A stretch of DNA of 64,000 nt from a virus: IMG/VR virus record IMGVR_UViG_3300027917_000034, positions 1 through 64,000 of that record. One strand, 5' to 3'. Made by a program: the position numbers and the translations under genes. Of the stretch, positions 86 to 15,793 are shown piece after piece (positions within the stretch are counted from its first letter, which is position 1; the number at the start of each line of letters is the position of its first letter). Under the pieces are notes generated by a model. That model was not told the origin of the DNA. It made no database searches and saw only the letters and a program-made list of their open reading frames with translations.

Positions 86-120
86 GACCGCCTCCTTTCG
101 TGGTCAGAAAACTCTACCAG

Positions 121-203
121 TGCGAGCGAGAGGAGTCGAACCTCCACGCCCTCTCGGGCACCTGGGTTTGAGCCAGGCGTGTCTGCCGTTTCACCACGCT
201 CGC
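121..203 (-). tRNA. tRNA-Leu(CAA)
   Basis: Cloverleaf with long variable arm; anticodon arm CCTGG-CT CAA AC-CCAGG. Confidence 0.93.
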
Positions 204-204
204 G

Positions 205-284
205 TACCCGCTGCGGGACTCGAACCCGCACGCACGAGGCGCCGGGGTTTAGGCCCGGTGTGTCTGCCGTTCCACCAAGCGGGC
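205..284 (-). tRNA. tRNA-Leu(TAA), with C33
   Basis: Cloverleaf with long variable arm; CCGGG-CC TAA AC-CCCGG. Confidence 0.88.
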
Positions 285-288
285 TCGG

Positions 289-373
289 TGCTACGGAGAG
301 GAGTCGAACCTCCACGGGGACTATGCCCCACCAGCCCCTCAAGCTGGCGTGTCTACCATTTCACCACCGTAGC
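289..373 (-). tRNA. tRNA-Leu(GAG)
   Basis: CCAGC-TT GAG GG-GCTGG; long variable arm. Confidence 0.93.
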
Positions 374-377
374 GTAG

Positions 378-460
378 TGCCAGGGAGAGGAGTCGAACCT
401 CCACGACCTTTCGGCCACTCGGTTCTGAGCCGAGCGCGTCTACCATTTCACCACCCTGGC
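378..460 (-). tRNA. tRNA-Leu(CAG)
   Basis: CTCGG-CT CAG AA-CCGAG; long variable arm. Confidence 0.93.
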
Positions 461-464
461 ATAG

Positions 465-535
465 TGGGCACAGAGGGACTCGAACCCCCGACTCTTGGGT
501 GTAGGCCAAGAATGATCCCATTTCACCATGCGCCC
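465..535 (-). tRNA. tRNA-Val(TAC), with C33
   Basis: CTTGG-CC TAC AC-CCAAG; T arm GGTTCGAGTCC. Confidence 0.85.
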
Positions 536-545
536 ATGAAAACTC

Positions 546-622
546 TGGTCGGGCAGAAGGGATTTGAACCCCCGACCTCCGCGTCCCGAACGCGGCGTGC
601 TCCCAGACTGCACCACTGCCCG
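546..622 (-). tRNA. tRNA-Pro(CGG)
   Basis: CCGCG-TT CGG GA-CGCGG; C1:G72; encoded CCA. Confidence 0.93.
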
Positions 623-683
623 ATGTTGATCGGCTGGTAGGGCGTGGCCCTCTCTACCGCCGCACTTTGGACCGGCCGATCGG

Positions 684-754
684 TGGCAACGGAGGGAATC
701 GAACCCTCTTGATCGCGGATATGAGCCGCGTCCCCTAGCCCGTAGGTCGCTGCC
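684..754 (-). tRNA. tRNA with CAT anticodon (Met or Ile2), atypical D arm
   Basis: CGCGG-CT CAT AT-CCGCG; good acceptor and T arms; D arm is non-canonical. Confidence 0.72.
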
Positions 755-755
755 G

Positions 756-831
756 AGGCGGGGGCTGGATTTGAACCAGCGATCTCTTGGTTATGAGCCA
801 AGTGGGGACGACCAGGCTCCCCTACCCCGCA
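756..831 (-). tRNA. tRNA-Met(CAT), initiator-like
   Basis: TGCGGGG...CCCCGCC with a 1:72 mismatch; CTTGG-CT CAT AA-CCAAG; overall fMet-like body. Confidence 0.85.
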
Positions 832-905
832 GGCGCGCTCGCCGGGACTCGAACCCGGATTCCTGGCTTCGGAGGCCAGTGCCCTATCCTTTGGACGACG
901 AGCGC
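832..905 (-). tRNA. tRNA-Arg(CCG)
   Basis: CTGGC-CT CCG AA-GCCAG. Confidence 0.92.
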
Positions 906-1111
906 TTGATCTGATCGGCCAACGCATCCGCCTCTCTCGCGGCCTTGCGGTAGTGCTCTACGCCACGGCGTAGACACTCCTCGCAGTTGACCTCTGCCAA
1001 GCGTTTCAGCCCGGCCAACTCGACTCCTTTCCGTGTGTAGATCTCGTGACCCTCCACCCCGCAGAAAGCTCCACGGTAAGGGCTCACGAGATGAACCACT
1101 GACGGTTCCAT
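884..1111 (-). CDS. small putative Zn-binding protein inside the tRNA array
   Basis: RBS GGGAGGG before ATG 1111; VH..CG...VNCEECL motif, similar to ORF 13025-13273; the stop codon lies inside tRNA-Arg(CCG). Confidence 0.55.
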   Translation of the reverse strand: MEPSVVHLVSPYRGAFCGVEGHEIYTRKGVELAGLKRLAEVNCEECLRRGVEHYRKAAREADALADQIKRSSSKG

Positions 1112-1125
1112 GACGCCCTCCCTTC

Positions 1126-1199
1126 GGAGACCCCGGCCGGACTCGAACCGGCATTCCAAGGTTCGTAGCCTTGTGCCCTATCCTTTGGACGACGGGGCC
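1126..1199 (-). tRNA. tRNA-Arg(ACG)
   Basis: CAAGG-CT ACG AA-CCTTG. Confidence 0.92.
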
Positions 1200-1201
1200 A
1201 G

Positions 1202-1273
1202 CGCTCCCACGAGGACTCGAACCCCGATCCACGGGTTAGAAGCCCGGTGCCCTATCCGTTGGACGATGGGAGC
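1202..1273 (-). tRNA. tRNA-Arg(TCT)
   Basis: CGGG-CT TCT AA-CCCG. Confidence 0.9.
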
Positions 1274-1274
1274 G

Positions 1275-1348
1275 TGGAGGCGCAGGGCGGAGTCGAACCG
1301 CCGACTGGAGGGTTGCAACCTCCCGTCTTTCCGTTTGACCACTGCGCC
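1275..1348 (-). tRNA. tRNA-Cys(GCA)
   Basis: GGAGG-TT GCA AC-CCTCC; U73; encoded CCA. Confidence 0.93.
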
Positions 1349-1351
1349 AGA

Positions 1352-1484
1352 GGCCGACAAGGGATTGCGAGAGACGTTTACGTGCTCTGCCACTGAGCTA
1401 CCGCCTCCATAGAGGGGAGGCGGACGGGGATCGAACCCGCGACCACGCGCTTACAAGGCGATGTACTCCCACGAGCATTCGGCC
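1352..1484 (-). ncRNA. Y RNA 1 (YrlA-like; T arm, closed acceptor, D arm order)
   Basis: GGCCGAATGC...CTTGTCGGCC terminal stem with GNCGAANG motif; internal T arm GGTTCGATCCC, acceptor hairpin CCGCCTCC/GGAGGCGG, D arm TAGCTCAGTGGCAGAGC; close to the TROVE gene. Confidence 0.88.
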
Positions 1485-1558
1485 GGAGCCGGCTACGGGA
1501 CTCGAACCCGTTTCTCGGGCTTGGGAAGCCCGCGCCTCACCTGTTTGGCCTAGCCGGC
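1485..1558 (-). tRNA. tRNA-Gly(CCC)
   Basis: CGGGC-TT CCC AA-GCCCG; U73; abuts Y RNA 1. Confidence 0.9.
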
Positions 1559-1605
1559 AGTTGGGCGCCCCCGGGGGACAGGGGCGCCCGTTCGATCAAG
1601 TGGGG

Positions 1606-3234
1606 TTAGTTGGTAGCCAGGTCGATGCCGTCGATGATCTCCAGCCACGACCCGGTGTCACCAGCGAGGAAGGAGCTTGCGACCTTGAACACCGCGTCAC
1701 TCCAGCCGGACACTTGCAGGATCTCCGGGTGGTTCCCGTCGATCTGATGCGTGCGCCCGGGGGTGATGTCGATGCACACCAGCTTCGCGTCCCGGTTGCG
1801 GTTCCGCAGCGTCTCCCACTCGTGCATGAGAGCCGTTCCGCTCCCGTAGCCCCAATAGCCCCTGTCGGCCCATGACTCGTAGTCCGAGATGACCACGACG
1901 TGATCGACCTTCAGGCGCCGCTGGTTCACGTGGTTGAACGCAGCGCTCAGAGCCGTTCCACCTCCACCGAATCGGGCGAGCCGATCGGCTTCGGTCAGAA
2001 GCGGGTTCCGAGGCTCCGGACGGTAGCCGGTGTGGACCGACGTATCGACCGGGAGAACGGCTGCGTCACGGTTCTGACGCAGGTACGACGCAGAGAACAG
2101 CGCCGCGACGTCCACGCACCGGACCTTGGTGGCCACCTGCTCCATGCGACCCGTCTTCCGGTTCCGCTTGAAGCCTGTGACCGGGCTCCGCATCGACCCG
2201 GAGACGTCCACGACGATCAGCGTCCGGCCCTCTGCGACCGGGGCGTTCTCGGTGGCAATCTCCATGGCGTCGTGGAGAGCGTCCACGATCTTGCGAGGCA
2301 CGTCCGGGTGGATGTGCTTGTAGGCCGCGAGCAACTGGTACGGCATGACCCGGGCCTTCTGGATCGACTCCCGGTCCCGCAAGCGGTCCGCGATGAAGTC
2401 CTCCATGCCGGGGTCGGCCTTCAGAACCCCGTGCCGCAGAGCGGTGTTGAGGTTCATCCGGATGAAGTGCCACTGCCCGTTGCGGAAGATCTGCGCCCAC
2501 TGCTCGCCCGTGAGGGGCTCTGCCGTGAGCAACTGGAAGTCCACCGGAGGCGATGGCAGGCTCTTGTCTGCCTTCCACTCCTCGTACTGCCGGACGAGCG
2601 GCGGGAGATTCTTCCAGCCCTTCTTCCGCCGATCCTTCTCGCCCTTTCCGATCATGTACCCGAACAGCGCCTCGTGCTCCGGAGAAGCCGGGCTCGGGTG
2701 GACCATCTTCACGATGTCCGCGCCGGATGGGTCTTGACCGACCGACAGTTGACGGAACAGCCAGTTGGGCTTGTTCCTGGAGAAGAAGCCCCGGACGAGG
2801 TTCCGTGGCCCGGTGCCCAGCGACTTCCGACCGAGCTTTCCACTCCGCATCATCTGGACGAAGTTGCGGAGCATCTTCCCGTTGTCGATGACCTGCGGGA
2901 ATGCGGCCTTCAGGGCTGCGCGTCCGTTGTCACCACGAGAGGCCAGGACCGCCATGAGCAAGGCCGGCATGTCCTTCATGTAGCCTTCCTTGCGCGTGAA
3001 GATCGCCAGCTTCGCGATGAAGTCGGAGTCGCACTCCTTCGCCAGAGCGAGCACGCGGTCCAGGTGGTCCTCGGCGTTCACGTAGAACGTGTCCGAGAGG
3101 CACCCTGTCATCGCGTACCGAGCCAGGGCTTGCTTGGAGCCGAGAGCGTATGCCTTGCCCCCGGCTGCGTTCACTGCGTCTGCTGCCTTGACCGTCCGCC
3201 CACGGGACGATCCGAAAAGAGACTTGTTCGCCAT
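1606..3234 (-). CDS. rsr: TROVE-domain Ro60/Rsr RNA-binding protein with C-terminal vWA domain
   Basis: N-terminal 'N.AGG.AY......L..Y..TG.L..TFY' and 'GYMKDMPALL' segments typical of bacterial Ro60; vWA MIDAS 'VDVSGSM', 'GGGT', 'ISDYESW'; RBS GGAAGGGAGG before ATG 3234. Confidence 0.93.
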   Translation of the reverse strand: MANKSLFGSSRGRTVKAADAVNAAGGKAYALGSKQALARYAMTGCLSDTFYVNAEDHLDRVLALAKECDSDFIAKLAIFTRKEGYMKDMPALLMAVLASRGDNGRAALKAAFPQVIDNGKMLRNFVQMMRSGKLGRKSLGTGPRNLVRGFFSRNKPNWLFRQLSVGQDPSGADIVKMVHPSPASPEHEALFGYMIGKGEKDRRKKGWKNLPPLVRQYEEWKADKSLPSPPVDFQLLTAEPLTGEQWAQIFRNGQWHFIRMNLNTALRHGVLKADPGMEDFIADRLRDRESIQKARVMPYQLLAAYKHIHPDVPRKIVDALHDAMEIATENAPVAEGRTLIVVDVSGSMRSPVTGFKRNRKTGRMEQVATKVRCVDVAALFSASYLRQNRDAAVLPVDTSVHTGYRPEPRNPLLTEADRLARFGGGGTALSAAFNHVNQRRLKVDHVVVISDYESWADRGYWGYGSGTALMHEWETLRNRNRDAKLVCIDITPGRTHQIDGNHPEILQVSGWSDAVFKVASSFLAGDTGSWLEIIDGIDLATN

Positions 3235-3347
3235 GATCGACCTCCCTTCCGCCAACAGTGCGGCGCTTTCATGGCTGCCTTCCCCACCTACAGGCGTGGG
3301 GTGGCAATCTCCTATCGCTACCAGGTAGCGATTGGATAGTCAAGAGT

Positions 3348-3500
3348 GCCCTGACAAGTGAGCGCGAGAGCGTTTTTTTCAGCTTCCGGCCCATGATTCA
3401 GGCTCCGAGGAGCCGGCGGGCCGGGACAGGATTTGAACCTGCAACCTTTGATTTAGGAGATCAATGCTGTACCGATGTACTCCCACTAGGCATTCAGGGC
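3348..3500 (-). ncRNA. Y RNA 2 (tRNA domain opened in the D-loop; intact Arg-CCT-like anticodon arm)
   Basis: GCCCTGAATGC...CTTGTCAGGGC; internal GGTA-CAGC, TTGAT-CTCCTAA-ATCAA, T arm, acceptor CCGGCCC/GGGCCGG, then GCTG. Confidence 0.85.
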
Positions 3501-3573
3501 GGTGCTGGTAGGGGGAGTCGAACCCCCATCTTCAGGGTGGAAACCTGACGTCCTGCCGTTGAACGACACCAGC
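3501..3573 (-). tRNA. tRNA-Gly(TCC)
   Basis: TCAGG-TT TCC AC-CCTGA. Confidence 0.88.
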
Positions 3574-3576
3574 AAA

Positions 3577-3699
3577 GGCCGACAAGAGATGGTCGAGATA
3601 AGCGCCCCCGAAGGGCACCCGCCACAGAGCGGCCCCCGAAGGGGCCTTGGCGGCGGGCAAAGGATTTGAACCAATGTAATCCCGTCCGAGCATTCGGCC
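3577..3699 (-). ncRNA. Y RNA 3 (T loop, acceptor-like stem and UUCG hairpins)
   Basis: GGCCGAATGC..GGGATTACAT..ATCTC..CTTGTCGGCC; GGTTCAAATCC; two TTCG-capped hairpins. Confidence 0.82.
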
Positions 3700-3774
3700 G
3701 GAGCCCCGAGCGGGAATCGAACCCGCCATCTCCGCCATACCAAGGCGGCGAATCACCGTTGATTCATCCGGGGC
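3700..3774 (-). tRNA. tRNA-Thr(GGT)
   Basis: CCGCC-TT GGT AT-GGCGG. Confidence 0.85.
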
Positions 3775-3777
3775 AGA

Positions 3778-3905
3778 GGATCGACAAGGTGGGCGCGAGG
3801 CTATGCCTTTACCAAGGTTAGGCTACCTGGCCATGGAAAGCTCCGAGGAGCGGTGGCCAGGGGTGGATTTGAACCATCAAAGTAGTCCCGCAAGGCATTC
3901 GATCC
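3778..3905 (-). ncRNA. Y RNA 4 (YrlA-like)
   Basis: GGATCGAATGC...CTTGTCGATCC (compensatory stem); T arm TGGTTCAAATCCA, acceptor CCTGGCCA/TGGCCAGG, D arm TAGCCT..AGGC. Confidence 0.86.
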
Positions 3906-3907
3906 AG

Positions 3908-3978
3908 TGGAGCCGGGGGGAATCGAACCCCCATCCCCTGGGTGCAAACCAGGTGCTCTCCCGTTGAGCTACGGTCCC
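3908..3978 (-). tRNA. tRNA-Ala(TGC)
   Basis: CCTGG-TT TGC AC-CCAGG; G3:U70. Confidence 0.92.
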
Positions 3979-3981
3979 ATT

Positions 3982-4124
3982 GCGGCGACAAGGGTTGCAG
4001 AGATCGTACCTCCGGGGGTGTTCGCCCCGGCGCTCTGATTGAGCTATAGGCGCAGGACTGCACGGTGTTACCCGCCGCCCCTGCTGGAGCACCTAACGAT
4101 GTATTCCCCGCCTGCATTCGCCGC
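3982..4124 (-). ncRNA. Y RNA 5 (tRNA domain opened in the T-loop)
   Basis: GCGGCGAATGC...CTTGTCGCCGC; ATCGT-TAGGTGC-TCCA...GCGCCTA-TAGCTCAATCAGAGC-G-CCGGGG/CCCCGG-AGGT-ACGAT. Confidence 0.85.
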
Positions 4125-4127
4125 GTA

Positions 4128-4204
4128 GGAGACTGACCAGGGGTCGAACCTGGAAGCGCACGAGCCGATCGGTCTCCCGCACGCCGTCCGTCTCTTCAAT
4201 CTCC
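4128..4204 (-). ncRNA. tRNA-like RNA lacking a D stem, with an extended anticodon-position helix
   Basis: GGAGATTGA/TCAGTCTCC acceptor-like stem, T arm CCAGG-TTCGACC-CCTGG, helix GCGTGCGGG/CTCGTGCGC; no 7-nt anticodon loop. Confidence 0.6.
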
Positions 4205-4206
4205 GG

Positions 4207-4280
4207 TGGATCGTGCCGGGGTCGAACCGGCGACCTCCGCGATGCGAACGCGGCGCTCTCCCACACTGAGCTAACGACCC
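4207..4280 (-). tRNA. tRNA-Ala(CGC)
   Basis: CCGCG-TT CGC AT-CGCGG; G3:U70. Confidence 0.92.
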
Positions 4281-4284
4281 ATGA

Positions 4285-4352
4285 GGCCGACAAGGAACGG
4301 TGAGACGACGGTTTTTCTCCAACGAAAATGTAGTCCCTCCAAGCATTCGGCC
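4285..4352 (-). ncRNA. Y RNA 6 (minimal, Ro-binding module only)
   Basis: GGCCGAATGC TTGGA GGGACTACAT...GTCTC...CTTGTCGGCC; 68 nt, no tRNA arms. Confidence 0.8.
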
Positions 4353-4354
4353 GG

Positions 4355-4427
4355 TGGAGTCGGAGGGGCTTGAACCCTCGGCCTTCGGTCTGCCAGACCG
4401 ACGCTCTCCCAACTGAGCTACGACCCC
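4355..4427 (-). tRNA. tRNA-Ala(GGC)
   Basis: TCGGT-CT GGC AG-ACCGA; G3:U70. Confidence 0.92.
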
Positions 4428-4495
4428 ATCCACAACCCGTCAGGGGGGCTGCGGCGTATGAGAATGCGACCGGGACAGAACCCTTGTCGTCGCGG

Positions 4496-4567
4496 TGGGC
4501 GTGGAGGGATTTGAACCCCCGATCTTCTGCGCGTCGAGCAGACGTCTTTCCACTTGACCACACGCCC
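4496..4567 (-). tRNA. tRNA-Val(GAC), with C33
   Basis: TCTGC-TC GAC GC-GCAGA. Confidence 0.85.
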
Positions 4568-4569
4568 TC

Positions 4570-4644
4570 TGGTACCCCGCCCCGGACTCGAACCGGGATT
4601 CGCCGGCTTATAAGGCCGGTGCAGTACCCTTGTGCTAGCGGGGC
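4570..4644 (-). tRNA. tRNA-Ile(TAT)
   Basis: CCGGC-CT TAT AA-GCCGG; encoded CCA. Confidence 0.87.
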
Positions 4645-4692
4645 TCCGAGTTTTCGGAGCCCGGTATTCGCCTCATCATTGGAACCCCCTTC

Positions 4693-4767
4693 TGGTGCCC
4701 AGGGACGGAATCGAACCGTCGTTCTCGCACTTATCAGGCGCGCGTCTTGCCACTCGACCACCCGGGC
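4693..4767 (-). tRNA. tRNA-Ile(GAT)
   Basis: CGCGC-CT GAT AA-GTGCG; encoded CCA. Confidence 0.92.
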
Positions 4768-4768
4768 A

Positions 4769-4844
4769 TGGAGCCCCCGGCCGGACTCGAACCGGCATCC
4801 TCTCGGGTAGGAGCCGAGCGCACGTCCTGTCGTGCTACGGGGGC
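4769..4844 (-). tRNA. tRNA-Arg(CCT)
   Basis: CTCGG-CT CCT AC-CCGAG; encoded CCA. Confidence 0.9.
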
Positions 4845-4845
4845 A

Positions 4846-4923
4846 TGGGGTGATCGATGGGACTCGAACCCACTAGGGCCGGGATCACAACCCGGTGCCG
4901 CGACCACTTTGGCTTCGACCACC
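4846..4923 (-). tRNA. tRNA-His(GTG)
   Basis: CCGGG-TT GTG AT-CCCGG; G-1:C73; encoded CCA. Confidence 0.92.
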
Positions 4924-4927
4924 ATGA

Positions 4928-5056
4928 GAGCCGACAAGGAACCGATGAGATCGTGAGTCATTCTATGGGCAGGACTCGAACCTGCTTCTCCGGGATTGCC
5001 CGGCGCTTTTCCTCATAAGCTACCTCAGAGATGTAATCCCGCCGTGCATTCGGCTC
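4928..5056 (-). ncRNA. Y RNA 7 (unpermuted cloverleaf attached through the acceptor stem; 4-nt loop in place of the anticodon)
   Basis: GAGCCGAATGC...CTTGTCGGCTC; D arm TAGCTT..AAGC, CCGGG-CAAT-CCCGG, T arm GCAGGTTCGAGTCCTGC. Confidence 0.85.
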
Positions 5057-5130
5057 GGTACCAGCGCCGGGACTTGAACCCGATCCTCTCGGTCCACAGC
5101 CGAGCGCGCCACCCGTTGCGCCTCGCTGGC
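5057..5130 (-). tRNA. tRNA with GTG anticodon lacking His identity elements
   Basis: CTCGG-CT GTG GA-CCGAG; A73 and no G-1. Confidence 0.75.
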
Positions 5131-5131
5131 A

Positions 5132-5217
5132 TGGTCCCCCGAGAAGGAATCGAACCTCCCTGGCCATACGACGACGGGGTTACAGCCCGCCCACCATCCA
5201 TAGGTGTCTATCGGGGG
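5132..5217 (-). tRNA. tRNA-Tyr(GTA) with C1:G72
   Basis: GCGGG-CT GTA AC-CCCGT; long variable region; acceptor CCCCCGA/TCGGGGG-A-CCA. Confidence 0.85.
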
Positions 5218-5226
5218 AAAACTCAG

Positions 5227-5300
5227 TCCGCGTGGAGGGATTTGAACCCCCGTCTTCCGGCTCCCAAAGCCGGCGCCCGACCAGGCTGGGCCACACGCGG
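5227..5300 (-). tRNA. tRNA-Pro(TGG)
   Basis: CCGGC-TT TGG GA-GCCGG. Confidence 0.92.
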
Positions 5301-5301
5301 A

Positions 5302-5376
5302 TGGTGGAGAGCCCCGGAATCGAACCGAGATTCGCGGATTTTCAGTCCGCTGCTCTACCGATTGAGCTAACTCTCC
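5302..5376 (-). tRNA. tRNA-Phe(GAA)
   Basis: GCGGA-CT GAA AA-TCCGC; encoded CCA. Confidence 0.94.
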
Positions 5377-5377
5377 A

Positions 5378-5455
5378 TGGCGGGGATGACGGGATTTGAA
5401 CCCGCGATCTTCTGCGTGACAGGCAGATGTCCTACCCAGGCTAGACCACATCCCC
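5378..5455 (-). tRNA. tRNA-Asp(GTC)
   Basis: TCTGC-CT GTC AC-GCAGA; G73; encoded CCA. Confidence 0.94.
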
Positions 5456-5459
5456 AAAA

Positions 5460-5568
5460 GGCCGACAAGATCGATGAGAGCTTTTACATGCCGGACTCGA
5501 ACCGGCTAGGTTTGGTTGATAGCCAAATTGTGAACCAATCACGATGTACTCCCACCCGGCATTCGGCC
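5460..5568 (-). ncRNA. Y RNA 8 (unpermuted cloverleaf attached through the acceptor stem; ATC anticodon loop)
   Basis: GGCCGAATGC...CTTGTCGGCC; TACAT/ATGTA stem, GTGA-TTGGT-TCAC, TTTGG-CTATCAA-CCAAA, GCCGGTTCGAGTCCGGC. Confidence 0.85.
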
Positions 5569-5643
5569 TGGCAGGTCACTGAGGAATCGAACCCCACAGA
5601 CGTCCGGGTTTGGAGCCCAGACCGCGTACCCAGCGCGTGACCC
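5569..5643 (-). tRNA. tRNA-Trp(CCA), short D arm
   Basis: CTGGG-CT CCA AA-CCCGG; G73; encoded CCA. Confidence 0.82.
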
Positions 5644-5723
5644 AGAGCGTCTCCGTCCAGGGCGTATCCATGGAACGAGTCGCTTCATGCGTCTCTCGGA
5701 GACGTGGCAGCATCCCGAAGGTC

Positions 5724-5780
5724 GCTGCCCCCACTGGTACCGTTGCTCCCTTTCGGGCCTGGCGGTCCTTGGTGGGCCAG
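5724..5780 (-). ncRNA. SRP RNA (4.5S/helix 8)-like element
   Basis: CCGCCAGGCCC-GAAA-GGGAGCAACGG has the CAGG/GNRA/AGCA signature of SRP domain IV; closed by CCCAC/GTGGG. Confidence 0.72.
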
Positions 5781-5853
5781 CATCGGAGGCAGGGATCGAA
5801 CCTGCACTGACGCGGGGTCAAAGCCCGCCGCTCTACCGTTGAGCTACTCCGAT
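5781..5853 (-). tRNA. tRNA-Gln(TTG)
   Basis: GCGGG-CT TTG AC-CCCGC. Confidence 0.88.
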
Positions 5854-5864
5854 ATGAAAACTGC

Positions 5865-5937
5865 GGCTCGGGCGCGAGGACTCGAACCTCGATTAGCGGG
5901 GCCAGAACCCGCCGTCCTGCCATTAGACGACGCCCGA
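5865..5937 (-). tRNA. tRNA-Gln(CTG)
   Basis: GCGGG-TT CTG GC-CCCGC; U1:A72. Confidence 0.92.
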
Positions 5938-5938
5938 A

Positions 5939-6014
5939 TGGTGGGTCCACCGGGACTCGAACCCAGATCGTCCGATTAAGAGTCGGAGGCGTTGCCAATT
6001 ACGCTCATGGACCC
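5939..6014 (-). tRNA. tRNA-Lys(CTT)
   Basis: TCCGA-CT CTT AA-TCGGA; encoded CCA. Confidence 0.92.
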
Positions 6015-6019
6015 GTGAA

Positions 6020-6094
6020 GGCTGGCCAGGTGGGACTCGAACCCACAACATCCCGGTTAACAGCCGGGCGCTCTACCAGGTGAGCTTCTGGCCA
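6020..6094 (-). tRNA. tRNA-Asn(GTT)
   Basis: CCCGG-CT GTT AA-CCGGG. Confidence 0.92.
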
Positions 6095-6199
6095 ATATGC
6101 CCCGGGGCCGGGTGAGCCCCGGGGCGAAGATGCTCGGTTGTCACAGACCGTTCGGCCGTCGCCGGCAGGTTCACAATCGGAACCTGCTTCTTCGATCGG

Positions 6200-6272
6200 T
6201 GGGGGCAACAGGGCTCGAACCTGCTCAGACCGGATTAAAAGTCCGGTGCCCGTCCTGTCGGGCGCTACCCCC
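6200..6272 (-). tRNA. tRNA-Lys(TTT)
   Basis: CCGGA-CT TTT AA-TCCGG. Confidence 0.88.
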
Positions 6273-6344
6273 GGAGATTGCTGTCTCCGGGTCATTGTTT
6301 GAATCGCCTGGGCATCGCTCCTCGTCTCCTCGAATCCGCCAACG

Positions 6345-6375
6345 AAAAAAGCCGCCTCGGTTTCCCGGGGCGGCT
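6345..6375 (-). terminator. intrinsic terminator/attenuator upstream of the tRNA-Y RNA operon
   Basis: AGCCGCCCCGG-GAAA-CCGAGGCGGCT followed by a U-tract on the minus strand, just before the first tRNA. Confidence 0.75.
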
Positions 6376-6732
6376 CTCGCGTACAGTGCGTGTGCTTTGC
6401 GAGAGCCTACCCGGGGCTACCCTCCTGAAGCGCGATGGCGGCATAAAACACGGTATTGCCGCTATCGGAGGGTAGACACGTCCATGAGGACGGTCGTTTG
6501 ACCTCCGTGCGCTTCAACCGGGTATGGGATTCTTGCCGTTGCATCGTGCTTCTCAGTAGCTCCCGGAAGGTGATGGACCTCCCGCTCGCACTTCTCAGCC
6601 TGTCAAGCGCAAACCATCCCGTCAAGGGAAAAATGCACGCCGAGGCAACTTTTTTGCGGCTCTTTGGAACGTACTGACTGGTACTCCGTTGAGGGGCGGA
6701 GTGATCTCCCTGACGCCCACGGCGACGGCCCC

Positions 6733-6844: not shown

Positions 6845-7053
6845 TGGCCCGTTTCAAGCACTCCTTACGCTCCGAGATGAGCGACGACCGCTACTCCGTA
6901 CTGGTGTTGGAGGATGAGCGCTCGACGCACATCCGATGTAGCGTCGATGGCGAGTGGGTCGTGCGCGTGACGGCGCCCCGAAGGCACGATGCGTTCTGCG
7001 CGGCCGAGAAGGCGCTGCTGCTTCTGCGGGAGCTTGTCGAGGAGAGGCCATGA
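6845..7053 (+). CDS. hypothetical protein
   Basis: AGGAG RBS before GTG; stop overlaps the next start (ATGA). Confidence 0.55.
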
Positions 7054-7718
7054 AGAAGCACCTGAAGTACCTGAGCTATGTCATCCGCCACCGCTGGTAC
7101 GTGTTCGTGGAGTGCCTGAAGATGGGCCTCGTCTGGCGCGGGCTCGTGCACGACCTGTCGAAATTTCTGCCCTCGGAGTGGTTCCCCTACGTCAACTACT
7201 TCAACGGCGAGTGGCGCTGCAAGGGGGACGTGCCGCCGGACTACAAGGCCCCGCAGGAGATCAAGGCCGCCTTCGATCTCGCGTGGCTGAAACACCAGCA
7301 CCGCAACCCGCACCACTGGCAATACTGGCGGCTCCGGGAGGACGACGGCGGAACCAAGGTGCTCCCCATGCCGCCCGTGTTCGTGAAGGAGATGCTGGCC
7401 GACTGGCGGGGCGCCGGGAAAGCTCAGGGGCAGACGTCCCTCGGTCCTTGGTATGCCAAGCACTACTGGAAGATCGAAGTGGCGAAGGAGACGCGCGACC
7501 TCTTGCACTCCCTCATGGAGCCCGACGAGCTACCGCCGACCGAGACGGTGACGGTGTTCGACAGGGTGTCGATCGAGAGTGTGTCCATGATGCCGGACGG
7601 CAGCATGCAGGCAGCCGGCAAGGTCGAGGAGTCGCACACCGAGGAGCGAGTCGTAGGCGGCCCGGGACAAGGCGTGTCCATCGGGTCGCGCGGGCGTGTG
7701 GGGGAGGTGAAGAGATGA
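7050..7718 (+). CDS. DUF5662-like HD-domain protein
   Basis: 'H..Y...HRW.V', 'HDLSKF', 'AWLKHQHRNPHHWQYW' and 'EMLADW' motifs. Confidence 0.75.
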   Translation: MKKHLKYLSYVIRHRWYVFVECLKMGLVWRGLVHDLSKFLPSEWFPYVNYFNGEWRCKGDVPPDYKAPQEIKAAFDLAWLKHQHRNPHHWQYWRLREDDGGTKVLPMPPVFVKEMLADWRGAGKAQGQTSLGPWYAKHYWKIEVAKETRDLLHSLMEPDELPPTETVTVFDRVSIESVSMMPDGSMQAAGKVEESHTEERVVGGPGQGVSIGSRGRVGEVKR

Positions 7719-12387: not shown

Positions 12388-13028
12388 AGATGCCAACGCA
12401 GAAACAGATCGAAGAGATGGGCGCAAGCCTGGAAGAGATGGCCCGGGAGACGGAGGGACTCGGACCGCCGGAACCGGAGATGCTGAAAGACTGCGGTGAC
12501 GGTGAGGTCCGACCGATCCTGGTCTACCCGAGCCCGAGACTACGCGACGACACGGCGGACGTGCTGGACTTCGATGACCGGCTCCGCAAACTCGTGGCCG
12601 ACCTGACGACCACGATGTATACGGTCGGCGGCATCGGGCTCGCAGCGACACAGATCGGGGAGACGGACCGGGTGTTCGTGATCGACCTCATGAACGGGCA
12701 GCCACCACAGAAGGGGAGGCCGCCGAGCCAGCTACTCGTCGCGGTGAATCCGAAGGTGTGGTTCATCCCTGGCAAGACGAAACGGGACGCCGAGAGGTGC
12801 CTCTCCTTCCCTGACGCCGTGGAGAACATCACCCGGCCGCACCAGATCGTCATGAAGGCGTTCAACCACCGTGGCAAGCCCTACGCGCTAGGCTGCGCTG
12901 CCGACCTCGCACGCGCGATCCAGCACGAGTACGACCATCTGGAGGGGGTGCTGCTCATCGACCACATGCCGAAGAAGAAGGCCCGCGATCTCAGGGCTCG
13001 CATTCAGCGGAGCGGCAGGCGGCGGTGA
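12384..13028 (+). CDS. def: peptide deformylase
   Basis: Motifs GIGLAATQIG, E(R)CLS and QHEYDHLEG. Confidence 0.92.
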   Translation: MKMPTQKQIEEMGASLEEMARETEGLGPPEPEMLKDCGDGEVRPILVYPSPRLRDDTADVLDFDDRLRKLVADLTTTMYTVGGIGLAATQIGETDRVFVIDLMNGQPPQKGRPPSQLLVAVNPKVWFIPGKTKRDAERCLSFPDAVENITRPHQIVMKAFNHRGKPYALGCAADLARAIQHEYDHLEGVLLIDHMPKKKARDLRARIQRSGRRR

Positions 13029-14605: not shown

Positions 14606-15793
14606 ATGGCGAAGATCCTAGTCACGGGCGGCCCCGTGCACGCGAAGCTGGACGCAGTGAAGATCGTGACCAACCGCTTCCGGGGTGGGCGCATCGTGCG
14701 GATGGCACGGCTCCTGGCCCAGAAGGGGCACGACCTCACCTATCTGTGCTCCAAGGACGCCGCGCATCCGAATACCCTTGTTCCGAGAGTCAAGCACGTC
14801 GAGATGGGGCTGGTTCATCACGACGGGTTCATCGACTACATGGAGAAGGTGCCGGAGCTTGCCCGGGAGCACGACATGGTGATCCTGGGGGCAGCGGTGG
14901 CGAACCTCATCCCGGAGCCTCCGTGGGGCACGGACCAGAAATTCCCCTCGCACGACTACCAGGAAGGCGACAAGGTGATGGTGCCCTTCCGCGTGGCCCC
15001 GCGCGTGATCAACGAGGTGAAGCAGGCCAACCCGCGATGCACGCTCGTCGGGTTCAAGTTGCTCTCCGGCGTGAGTGACGAGGAGCTACTCCGGGCAGCC
15101 TACACGATCATCCTGGACGCGAAGGCGGACCTCGTGGTGGCGAACGACTCGACCAACCTCAACCGAAAGCTACTGGTTACGAAAGAGCGCTCGGTCATCG
15201 AAGCCTACGAGGAAGGCTACACCGGGCTCGACACTGAAGTCGGCTCGCTCCTGATCCTCGTGGACTTCCTCTCCGAGATGGCCAACGACGAGCACTACGC
15301 CACGGTGTGGAGGGACAGCGGTGTCCCTGGAGTCCCGGACGCGCTGGACAGCTACTTCGCCGTCATGCGGGAGCACGGACCGCGTATCGAGGAATTCGGC
15401 ACTGTCGGAGACCTCGTGTTCGGGTGCGTGGCTGTCCGCGTGCCCGGTGGTGGTTTCCTCTGCTCCCCGAGGGGCAAGAACACGATCCATGAAGACCCCG
15501 TGTACGTCCACACCGTCCATCACGGAGTGCGTCACGTCATGGTGGGGCGGTCCGCCTACCTGGACACCGATGAGTACCTGAAGGCCAGCCTCAACGCCCC
15601 GCTGCTCGCTCGCATGTTCGAGGCGGACCCCCGTATCCAGGCCATCGTCCACACGCACCAGACAGATACGGGCCTGTCGGTGCTCCCCTACGCTCCTCCA
15701 GGCACCGTGCGGGACTCCCAGCGCAAGCTCCTCGATGAGGACTTCGAGATCGAACACCACGGGACGTTCACCCGGGTCATGGAGGCATCATGA
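14606..15793 (+). CDS. CoaB/DFP-like (phosphopantothenate-cysteine ligase fold) domain fused to a class II aldolase/adducin-like domain
   Basis: N-terminus 'KILVTGGP....D.VK.VTNR', 'AAVAN', 'LVGFKL', 'DLVVAND'; C-terminus 'AIVHTH...HHG'. Confidence 0.75.
   Translation: MAKILVTGGPVHAKLDAVKIVTNRFRGGRIVRMARLLAQKGHDLTYLCSKDAAHPNTLVPRVKHVEMGLVHHDGFIDYMEKVPELAREHDMVILGAAVANLIPEPPWGTDQKFPSHDYQEGDKVMVPFRVAPRVINEVKQANPRCTLVGFKLLSGVSDEELLRAAYTIILDAKADLVVANDSTNLNRKLLVTKERSVIEAYEEGYTGLDTEVGSLLILVDFLSEMANDEHYATVWRDSGVPGVPDALDSYFAVMREHGPRIEEFGTVGDLVFGCVAVRVPGGGFLCSPRGKNTIHEDPVYVHTVHHGVRHVMVGRSAYLDTDEYLKASLNAPLLARMFEADPRIQAIVHTHQTDTGLSVLPYAPPGTVRDSQRKLLDEDFEIEHHGTFTRVMEAS

What the first reader, a model, noticed from the sequence alone, without database searches (positions are those of the whole stretch)
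5724..5780. Phage-encoded SRP RNA domain IV mimic inside the tRNA array
Seen: CCGCCAGGCCC-GAAA-GGGAGCAACGG within a roughly 57-nt hairpin directly after tRNA-Gln. Established: CAGG/AGCA flanking a GNRA-capped helix is the Ffh/SRP54 binding site of SRP RNA. Inference: a minimal 4.5S RNA that replaces cleaved host SRP RNA or titrates Ffh. It is shorter than typical 4.5S RNA and may lack the distal GTPase-activating end. It fits with the phage-encoded deformylase as control of the ribosome exit site.
Basis: partly seen in the sequence, partly recalled or inferred. Interest (0 to 1): 0.72.

Follow-up and report, generated by a model that had tools for sequence, protein, structure and literature searches.

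The report
Phage mini SRP-RNA hairpin in tRNA array
An uncultured marine-sediment phage carries, between two tRNA genes, a 47-base hairpin that copies only the protein-binding tip of the bacterial signal recognition particle (4.5S) RNA; its relatives keep it under selection, so the phage may tamper with how the host sends proteins to the membrane.

Summary
On the minus strand, 3-4 nt after tRNA-Gln(UUG), a 47-nt hairpin (5730-5776) carries CCG-C-CAGG-CCC-GAAA-GGG-AGCA-A-CGG. This 26-mer is identical to the apex of full-length SRP RNAs in 97 bacterial species. Rfam RF00169 scores it 30.4 bits, below the gathering score of 40, because about two thirds of the SRP RNA hairpin, including the distal end, is missing and the asymmetric loop is remodelled.

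It is not chance and probably not a relic. Two related phage lineages, found through a neighbouring protein and not through the motif, keep a homologous three-hairpin spacer between tRNA-Gln and tRNA-Trp. The apex is 91-95% identical while its stems are 44% identical and covary. A third relative lacks the spacer.

About ten other large phages carry similar truncated hairpins on the tRNA strand of their arrays. None of the ten carrier records searched encodes Ffh or FtsY.

The most likely role is binding host Ffh as a distal-end-less mini SRP RNA. Whether it acts as surrogate, modulator or decoy is open, and nothing was tested biochemically. The proposed link to the phage deformylase is not supported.

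Earlier agents of this scan noted the same class on other DNA. I found no published description.

The parts
5730..5776 (-). H1: 47-nt SRP-RNA-like hairpin. From base to tip: outer 5-bp stem, 3x1 internal loop CAA/A, 2 bp, bulged A, 4-bp helix ACCG/CGGU, C.A, 4x4 loop, 3-bp helix, GAAA.
   Evidence: MFE and centroid fold; consensus fold with L136 and L215; RF00169 alignment with high posterior over the apex
5740..5765 (-). 26-mer CCGCCAGGCCCGAAAGGGAGCAACGG, identical to the apex of real bacterial SRP RNAs. It holds the symmetric loop CAGG/AGCA (5758-5761 and 5744-5747) and the GAAA tetraloop (5751-5754).
   Evidence: 97 exact matches in GTDB species genomes; 16 of 18 sampled lie in RF00169 hits of 43-79 bits; model R1 scores 5739-5766 at 46.1 bits
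5706..5729 (-). H2: 24-nt UUCG-capped hairpin directly after H1, function unknown
   Evidence: Fold; kept as a hairpin with changed sequence in L136 (GAAA loop) and L215; no Rfam match
5648..5704 (-). H3: 57-nt branched hairpin with conserved UCUCCGAG ... GAUACGCCCUGG-CGGAG, ending 4 nt before tRNA-Trp; function unknown
   Evidence: 60-63% identical to the relatives
5780..5853 (-). tRNA-Gln(UUG), upstream neighbour; no encoded CCA. Its 3' processing would free the 5' end of the spacer RNA.
   Evidence: ARAGORN; Rfam tRNA 62.5 bits
5569..5643 (-). tRNA-Trp(CCA), downstream neighbour. RNase P cleavage at its 5' end would free the 3' end of the spacer RNA.
   Evidence: ARAGORN

Best explanation
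Window 5730-5776 (minus strand) encodes a phage-borne, truncated copy of the apex of bacterial SRP (4.5S) RNA helix 8/domain IV. It is transcribed as part of the tRNA operon. The enzymes that trim tRNA-Gln and tRNA-Trp probably release it, either alone or as a 136-nt three-hairpin RNA (H1-H2-H3). The phage has no Ffh or FtsY on the held 81.9 kb, so the RNA most likely works by binding the M domain of the host's Ffh through the CAGG/AGCA loop. The GNRA tetraloop would remain able to tether FtsY. The hairpin lacks the distal end of SRP RNA, where the Ffh-FtsY GTPase pair docks to be activated. Particles built on it should therefore assemble with the receptor but be poor at GTPase activation. The phage RNA would then act as a modulator or sponge of the host SRP cycle, or as a minimal stand-in that keeps Ffh loaded. 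Shown here: the sequence, the fold, identity to real SRP apices, selection on the apex, recurrence in other phages, and absence of phage Ffh on the held records. Inferred: processing, expression, Ffh binding and the effect on targeting.
For: The sequence and position match SRP RNA:
- The apex is identical over 26 nt to full-length SRP RNAs of 97 species from several phyla.
- RF00169 gives 30.4 bits, E 1e-4 locally and 7e-6 per record.

Evidence independent of the motif search:
- Syntenic relatives were found through the neighbouring DUF5662 protein.
- L135/L136 and L215 keep a 136-138-nt spacer between tRNA-Gln(UUG) and tRNA-Trp with the same three hairpins.
- Against the window, the 22-nt apex is 91-95% identical. 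The H1 stems are 44%, H2 38-71%, H3 60-63%, tRNA-Gln 55% and tRNA-Trp 74%.
- The helix below the loop changes by compensation (ACCG/CGGU, GACG/CGUC, GGCG/CGUC). The tetraloop varies only within GNRA (GAAA/GGAA).

Evidence from the wider class:
- Of 30 IMG/VR hits to CCAGGNCCGNAAGGNAGCA, about 12 lie in or beside tRNA arrays of large phages, all on the tRNA strand.
- Across 12 such hairpins, the 4-bp helix outside the searched pattern is paired in 94% of cells and all 4 of its pairs show compensatory changes. For both helices together, 96% of cells pair against 24-45% in slid controls, and 0 of 500 shuffles reach the covariation score.
- None of the 10 other carrier records searched, 4 of them at least 90% complete, nor this contig, encodes an SRP54-type GTPase.

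Background from papers: Ffh binds through the symmetric and asymmetric loops and the tetraloop contacts FtsY (PMC5115805). [quoted passage not shown]
Against: - There is no binding or expression data; no RNA run holds the phage.
- The asymmetric loop, which also contributes to Ffh binding, is not canonical. Real SRP RNAs with this apex have 5' (G/C/A)AACC and 3' UA(A/G) directly next to the 3-bp helix. The window has CAA/A two base pairs further out, and some class members have no asymmetric loop at all.
- Relative L136 has CAGA where CAGG is expected, a change in a loop base that is invariant in the other 11 phage hairpins. It scores only 18.2 bits with RF00169.
- The spacer is absent in relative L216 and in five Ro60-sharing phages, so it is dispensable.
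- The same apex forms P12 of an RNase P RNA in L005, so the motif can be a module of another RNA.
- The score is below Rfam's gathering threshold.
Confidence: 0.55

Rival explanations
1. H1 is one structural module of a larger 136-nt spacer RNA (H1-H2-H3) whose job has nothing to do with Ffh. It might be a processing or spacing element of the tRNA operon, or an RNA with an unknown partner. On this reading the SRP-like apex is reused as a folded building block.
For: All three hairpins are conserved with covariation in L136 and L215. H3 carries its own conserved single-stranded sequence, and part of it is repeated on the other side of tRNA-Trp in L136. An identical apex is displayed as P12 of a full RNase P RNA in L005. 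The same array holds other non-tRNA RNAs, the YrlA-like modules.
Against: The apex is far better conserved than H2, H3 or the H1 stems. In other phages the SRP-like hairpin occurs without H2/H3-like neighbours. The non-Watson-Crick 4x4 loop is not known to me as a general stability module (own knowledge).
Confidence: 0.15
2. The hairpin is a decoy for something other than Ffh that recognises SRP RNA domain IV. An example would be a host defence nuclease or toxin that attacks 4.5S RNA, by analogy with phage tRNAs that replace tRNAs cut by host anticodon nucleases.
For: It sits among phage tRNAs, which are thought to compensate for host tRNA depletion or cleavage (own knowledge). Only the apex is kept, as expected for a recognition-site decoy.
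Against: I know of no SRP-RNA-targeting nuclease, and my literature searches turned up none. The conserved bases are exactly the Ffh contact surface.
Confidence: 0.12
3. The hairpin is a decaying, functionless remnant of a host ffs gene that was picked up together with a neighbouring tRNA.
For: In bacteria ffs often lies directly beside a tRNA gene (6 of 16 sampled loci; on the same strand wherever the pair is listed). Three phage copies sit beside tRNA-Ser. The module is missing in relative L216. L136 has a change in the conserved loop.
Against: The apex is 91-95% conserved while surrounding stems and even the flanking tRNA-Gln have diverged to 44-55%. The stems change by compensation. Many unrelated phages have trimmed both strands symmetrically to a closed hairpin, which random decay of a roughly 100-nt gene would not do.
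Confidence: 0.1
4. The resemblance to SRP RNA is chance, in an ordinary GC-rich spacer hairpin.
For: The 16-base pattern alone is expected a few tens of times by chance in the whole IMG/VR collection (my estimate). About 9 of the 30 hits lie in coding DNA.
Against: The 26-nt identity to real SRP RNAs, the single hit in the window, the conservation in relatives found through a protein, and the absence of false positives in 1.46 Mb.
Confidence: 0.03

Closest known systems
Bacterial small SRP RNA (4.5S RNA, ffs; Rfam RF00169)
   Same: GNRA tetraloop, 3-bp helix, 4x4 symmetric loop CAGG/AGCA, C.A and the next 3 bp are identical to real SRP RNAs of 97 species. 'UA' follows the helix on the 3' side as in real ones.
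   Different: 47 nt against about 95-115 nt. There is no distal end, which is the GTPase-activating site (PMC4737761). The asymmetric loop is remodelled. It is encoded by a phage inside a tRNA operon and not as a separate host gene. It scores 30.4 bits against a gathering score of 40.
Truncated SRP-like hairpins in tRNA arrays of other large uncultured phages (L006, L010, L012, L013, L014/L019, L025, L027, L029; also L024, about 1 kb from the nearest tRNA gene; earlier scan notes e1-5356631, e1-5874975)
   Same: The same apex, the same strand as the tRNAs, similar size, and no phage Ffh or FtsY. L025 also places it directly after tRNA-Gln(UUG).
   Different: The stems are unrelated in sequence. 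Some have a canonical asymmetric loop and pass Rfam's threshold (L014 42.1 bits, L019 40.7 bits), and others have none (L010, L012, L025). Only this lineage has the H2 and H3 companions. This class is not published as far as I could find.
Minimal 4.5S RNA domain IV fragments used in vitro for Ffh M-domain binding and crystallography (own knowledge, about 43-49 nt)
   Same: About the same length and the same apex. Such fragments bind the Ffh M domain tightly (own knowledge, not checked here).
   Different: Those fragments are laboratory constructs with the native asymmetric loop. This one is natural and its asymmetric loop is altered.
Phage T4 stable RNAs rnaC and rnaD, and phage-encoded tmRNA and YrlA Y RNAs
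   Same: They are non-tRNA small RNAs encoded in or beside phage tRNA clusters and matured with the tRNAs. This window also holds YrlA-like modules and a Ro60 gene.
   Different: These are different RNA families, and none carries the SRP apex. The T4 RNAs have no known function (own knowledge).

Membership tests
Bacterial small SRP RNA (RF00169) | GNRA tetraloop closing helix 8 | tested here: met
   GAAA at 5751-5754. The relatives have GAAA (L136) and GGAA (L215).
Bacterial small SRP RNA (RF00169) | Symmetric 4x4 internal loop 5'-CAGG / AGCA-3', three base pairs below the tetraloop (the main Ffh M-domain site) | tested here: met
   Exact, and the surrounding 26 nt are identical to SRP RNAs of 97 species. 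L136 deviates (CAGA).
Bacterial small SRP RNA (RF00169) | Asymmetric internal loop directly below the next 3-bp helix (5' side 4-5 nt such as GAACC, 3' side UA/UAA) | tested here: not met
   Real SRP RNAs with this apex show (G/C/A)AACC | UA(A/G). The window has GGA | UACC, pairing into 2 extra bp with a bulged A, and a 3x1 loop CAA/A further out.
Bacterial small SRP RNA (RF00169) | Long hairpin of about 95-115 nt with a distal end that activates the Ffh-FtsY GTPases | tested here: not met
   The hairpin is 47 nt, bounded by tRNA-Gln 3-4 nt upstream and an independent hairpin H2 directly downstream.
Bacterial small SRP RNA (RF00169) | Score at or above Rfam's gathering threshold (40 bits) | tested here: not met
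   30.4 bits. It is absent from the gathering-threshold scan.
Bacterial small SRP RNA (RF00169) | Binds Ffh/SRP54 and supports SRP function | not testable with these tools
   No RNA-protein binding or complementation tool was available.
Phage tRNA-array mini SRP hairpins (unpublished class, model R1) | 28-nt core (4-bp helix, C.A, 4x4 loop, 3-bp helix, GNRA) on the tRNA strand within a phage tRNA array | tested here: met
   R1 scores 46.1 bits, E 2e-10. The window was one of the 11 training sequences, so the score is partly by construction. The helix covaries across members. The position is between tRNA-Gln and tRNA-Trp.

The most novel reading that the evidence does not exclude
Large phages of many lineages encode a stripped-down SRP RNA consisting of only the Ffh-binding and FtsY-tethering tip, matured from their tRNA operons. 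It would load host Ffh into particles that cannot use the distal GTPase-activation site. The virus would thereby reprogram or throttle co-translational membrane targeting during infection. This would be a new kind of viral mimic of a universal host ribonucleoprotein. The same tip grafted into P12 of an RNase P RNA (L005) would be a second way of delivering it.
Probability: 0.3. Interest if true: 0.85.

Novelty: new variant of a known kind. Interest (0 to 1): 0.65.

Why it matters
SRP RNA is one of the few universally conserved RNAs, and no virus is known (to me, or in the literature I could search) to encode or mimic it. A natural 47-nt version resembles the minimal fragment that biochemists cut out for Ffh binding studies (own knowledge). 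Selection keeps the tip and the distal GTPase-activating end is absent. This offers a ready-made natural experiment on what the tip alone does in a cell. It also points to the SRP pathway as a target of phage takeover, alongside tRNAs, tmRNA and Y RNAs. The test is cheap: a synthetic RNA, purified Ffh and FtsY, and expression in E. coli.

Tried and rejected
- Rfam at gathering threshold found only tRNAs in the window.
- Close DNA relatives in cultured phages: only tRNA-level matches. A search with the 52-nt hairpin listed only weak hits (E 1-4) in coding regions among the 40 of 159 records shown.
- Relatives through the deformylase protein: none.
- Relatives through the Ro60 protein: five phages, none with any RF00169 hit on the whole record.
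The Logan and ENA contigs holding the closest DUF5662 homologues (P0002 81%, P0012 75%) could therefore not be fetched.
- Sequencing runs: no RNA holder is listed. The three full holders are marine-sediment DNA runs that may be the source.
- Laying contigs of four other sediment runs gave only short pieces at 80-95% likeness, mostly tRNA-like. A C-to-A variant at 5737 probably comes from bacterial ffs contigs, so I drew no conclusion from it.
- Promoter and terminator scan of 5300-6600: nothing on the minus strand inside the array.
- The longer pairing in the Rfam alignment (tRNA-Gln 3' strand with the H2 region) was rejected. It would destroy the tRNA acceptor stem, and H2 forms its own conserved hairpin.
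- Host assignment: the apex is shared by too many phyla to name a host. The best extended match, 32 of 33 nt, is to SRP RNAs of a Desulfovibrionaceae MAG and two other MAGs, one labelled only Proteobacteria (L059, L057, L133). This is a lead only.
- Six literature searches found no description of a phage-encoded SRP RNA.

Full report
**What is there**

The window is the first 64 kb of an 81.9-kb IMG/VR virus record, about 48% complete by CheckV and 63% G+C. The DNA occurs in marine-sediment metagenomes. Positions 120-6272 hold 35 tRNA genes, all on the minus strand.

Between tRNA-Gln(UUG) (5780-5853) and tRNA-Trp(CCA) (5569-5643) lies a 136-nt spacer. As minus-strand RNA it folds into three hairpins (-61.4 kcal/mol, z = -3.3):
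- H1, 5730-5776
- H2, 5706-5729
- H3, 5648-5704

H1 reads CCCAC-CAA-GG-ACCG-C-CAGG-CCC-GAAA-GGG-AGCA-A-CGGU-A-CC-A-GUGGG. The hairpin is 47 nt, not about 57.

**Is it SRP-like beyond chance?**

- Rfam at gathering thresholds reports only tRNAs.
- With E-value thresholds, RF00169 (bacterial small SRP RNA) matches 5709-5789 at 30.4 bits. That is E 1e-4 for the 301-nt search and 7e-6 per record, with high posterior only over the apex.
- The generic motif CAGG-N3-GNRA-N3-AGCA occurs once in the window.
- The 26-mer CCGCCAGGCCCGAAAGGGAGCAACGG has 97 exact matches among GTDB species genomes. These include Aquificota, Thermodesulfobacteriota, Desulfovibrionaceae, Verrucomicrobiota and Proteobacteria.
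- In 16 of 18 sampled loci the 26-mer lies inside a full-length RF00169 hit of 43-79 bits.

The apex of H1 is thus letter for letter a real SRP RNA apex: tetraloop, 3-bp helix, 4x4 symmetric loop, C.A and the next 3 bp.

Two things differ from real SRP RNAs:
- In real SRP RNAs with this apex, the helix is flanked by (G/C/A)AACC on the 5' side and UA(A/G) on the 3' side, which form the asymmetric loop. The window keeps CAA and UA but has GGA and CC in between. These pair, leaving a bulged A and a 3x1 loop two base pairs further out.
- The long distal part of the SRP hairpin is missing. tRNA-Gln ends 3-4 nt upstream, and H2 begins at the next base.

**Evidence from relatives found without using the motif**

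The neighbouring DUF5662 protein (6954-7718, plus strand) led to syntenic relatives:
- L135/L136 (IMG/VR, 77% amino-acid identity) and L215 (JGI metagenome, 71%) have the same tRNA order. Both have a 136-138-nt spacer between tRNA-Gln(UUG) and tRNA-Trp.
- L216 (68%) has the two tRNAs 1 nt apart, so the module is absent there.

The three spacers align throughout and share the three-hairpin consensus fold. Eight of its 42 pairs show compensatory changes.
- L215 has C-CAGG-CCC-GGAA-GGG-AGCA-A.
- L136 has U-CAGA-CCC-GAAA-GGG-AGCA-A.
- The helix below the loop is ACCG/CGGU in the window, GACG/CGUC in L215 and GGCG/CGUC in L136.

Identity to the window by segment:

| Segment | Identity to window |
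|---|---|
| 22-nt apex | 91-95% |
| H1 stems | 44% |
| H2 | 38-71% |
| H3 | 60-63% |
| tRNA-Gln | 55% |
| tRNA-Trp | 74% |

The apex is the best-conserved piece of the whole region. This argues for selection on the SRP-like loops and against a decaying relic.

**A recurrent class**

A scan of IMG/VR for CCAGGNCCGNAAGGNAGCA returned 30 loci.
- About 9 hits lie in coding DNA, roughly what chance predicts.
- 7 are ordinary host ffs genes, often beside tRNA-Ser, with RF00169 scores of 61-72 bits where tested.
- 1 lies inside an RNase P RNA.
- About 12 lie in or beside tRNA arrays of large phage records (49-436 kb). All of these are on the same strand as the tRNAs.

The array copies are closed hairpins of roughly 30-50 nt with unrelated stems. 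Their RF00169 scores range from 27 to 42 bits.

The loops of this class are fixed by the search pattern, so their conservation is not independent evidence. The 4-bp helix outside the pattern is independent:
- Across 12 sequences, that helix is paired in 94% of cells, and all four of its pairs show compensatory changes.
- For both helices together, 96% of cells pair, against 24-45% when the partner is slid.
- 0 of 500 shuffles reach the covariation score.

A 28-position covariance model built from 11 members finds only the window, L135/L136 and L215 (all among the sequences it was built from, or identical to one). It gives nothing else above 17 bits in 1.46 Mb of other phage and metagenome loci.

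None of the 10 other carrier records searched, 4 of them at least 90% complete, nor this contig, encodes an SRP54-type GTPase. Any protein partner from the SRP system would therefore have to be the host's.

Earlier agents of this scan reported the same kind of hairpin in other genomes (e1-5356631, e1-5874975, e1-5356621, e1-6018306). Those are unchecked notes. I re-derived the class here from my own searches.

**How it most likely works**

According to the literature:
- Ffh binds SRP RNA through the symmetric and asymmetric loops, and the tetraloop contacts FtsY to stabilise the early targeting complex (PMC5115805).

H1 keeps the first two elements exactly, has a remodelled third, and lacks the last. 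My preferred reading (about 55%) has four steps:
1. The spacer is made with the tRNAs. No promoter or terminator lies within it.
2. tRNA 3' and 5' processing frees it.
3. It binds host Ffh.
4. The resulting particles can meet FtsY but are poorly activated.

Whether the net effect is to sustain, throttle or sponge the host SRP cannot be decided from sequence.

Points against this reading:
- the non-canonical asymmetric loop;
- the G-to-A change in L136;
- loss of the module in L216, and its absence from five Ro60-sharing phages;
- the lack of any expression data.

**Rivals**

- H1 may be a module of a larger 136-nt RNA with another role (about 15%). H2 and H3 are conserved too. In L005 an identical 28-nt apex forms P12 of a full RNase P RNA (272.5 bits). 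That record has no Ffh and no other SRP RNA.
- It may be a decoy for an unknown factor that recognises domain IV (about 12%).
- It may be a relic co-captured with a tRNA (about 10%). Bacterial ffs often adjoins a tRNA, but the conservation pattern argues against this.
- Chance (about 3%).

**The deformylase idea**

The phage does encode a deformylase (12507-12980). Among 10 other mini-SRP carriers, only the close relative has one. Two of 5 non-carriers have one. There is no sign of coupling.

**Known or new**

Six full-text searches found no report of a phage-encoded SRP RNA or SRP mimic. The element fails three defining tests of RF00169 membership: length with distal end, asymmetric loop, and gathering score. 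I therefore file it as a truncated derivative or mimic. It is a new variant of a known kind, not a member of the family.

**Limits**

- Only three homologous spacers are in hand.
- E-values from model R1 are rough.
- Statements about Ffh affinity of minimal fragments and about T4 rnaC/rnaD rest on my own knowledge.

Noticed in passing
window 1606-3255 (-): A 549-aa ORF inside the tRNA array matches Ro60 (TROVE and Ro60 vWA domains). Relatives at 41-48% identity occur in 170-208-kb phages and a 24-kb fragment. In two of them a YrlA Y RNA lies 12 nt (L035) or about 1.5 kb (L034) downstream.
   Followed up: partly
window 5456-5568 (-); also spacers starting at 1484, 3699, 4352 and 5055 (-): Five tRNA-array spacers begin with the YrlA 5' consensus GGCCGAAUGC (0 of 100 shuffles reach the count). 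The 5456-5568 spacer folds as a tRNA-like domain inside a long stem. It hits RF02553 YrlA at 22.7 bits and tRNA at 23.3 bits. ARAGORN's odd 'tRNA-???' at 4961-5029 is probably the tRNA-like part of another. The phage seems to carry several Y-RNA-like genes with its Ro60.
   Followed up: partly
L005 3492-3855 (IMG/VR record of 480 kb, classed as provirus): A full class A RNase P RNA (272.5 bits) has a P12 stem with a 21-nt insertion. The insertion makes P12 an SRP domain IV apex, identical over 28 nt to the window's hairpin and flanked by GAAU/UAG like an asymmetric loop. The record has no Ffh or FtsY and no other SRP RNA. It may be host DNA within a provirus call.
   Followed up: partly
L006 7049-7289: A weak RNase P class A hit (46 bits, E 2e-11) lies inside a 38-tRNA array that also holds a tmRNA and a mini SRP hairpin. 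It may be a reduced phage RNase P RNA.
   Followed up: no
window 5648-5729 (-); L136 6595-6626: Hairpins H2 and H3 after the SRP-like hairpin are conserved with covariation but match no Rfam family. In L136, 32 nt of H3 are repeated exactly on the other side of tRNA-Trp. Between the three relatives the hairpins show mosaic similarity: the H1 stems of L136 and L215 are 96% identical, while H2 of the window and L215 are 71% identical.
   Followed up: partly
window 6095-6197 (-): Another 103-nt GC-rich spacer lies between tRNA-Asn and tRNA-Lys(UUU). It was not analysed.
   Followed up: no
window 12507-12980 (+) and 14606-15793 (+): The phage encodes a peptide deformylase (144 bits) and a protein with a DFP (CoaBC-type flavoprotein) domain fused to a class II aldolase-like domain.
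   Followed up: no
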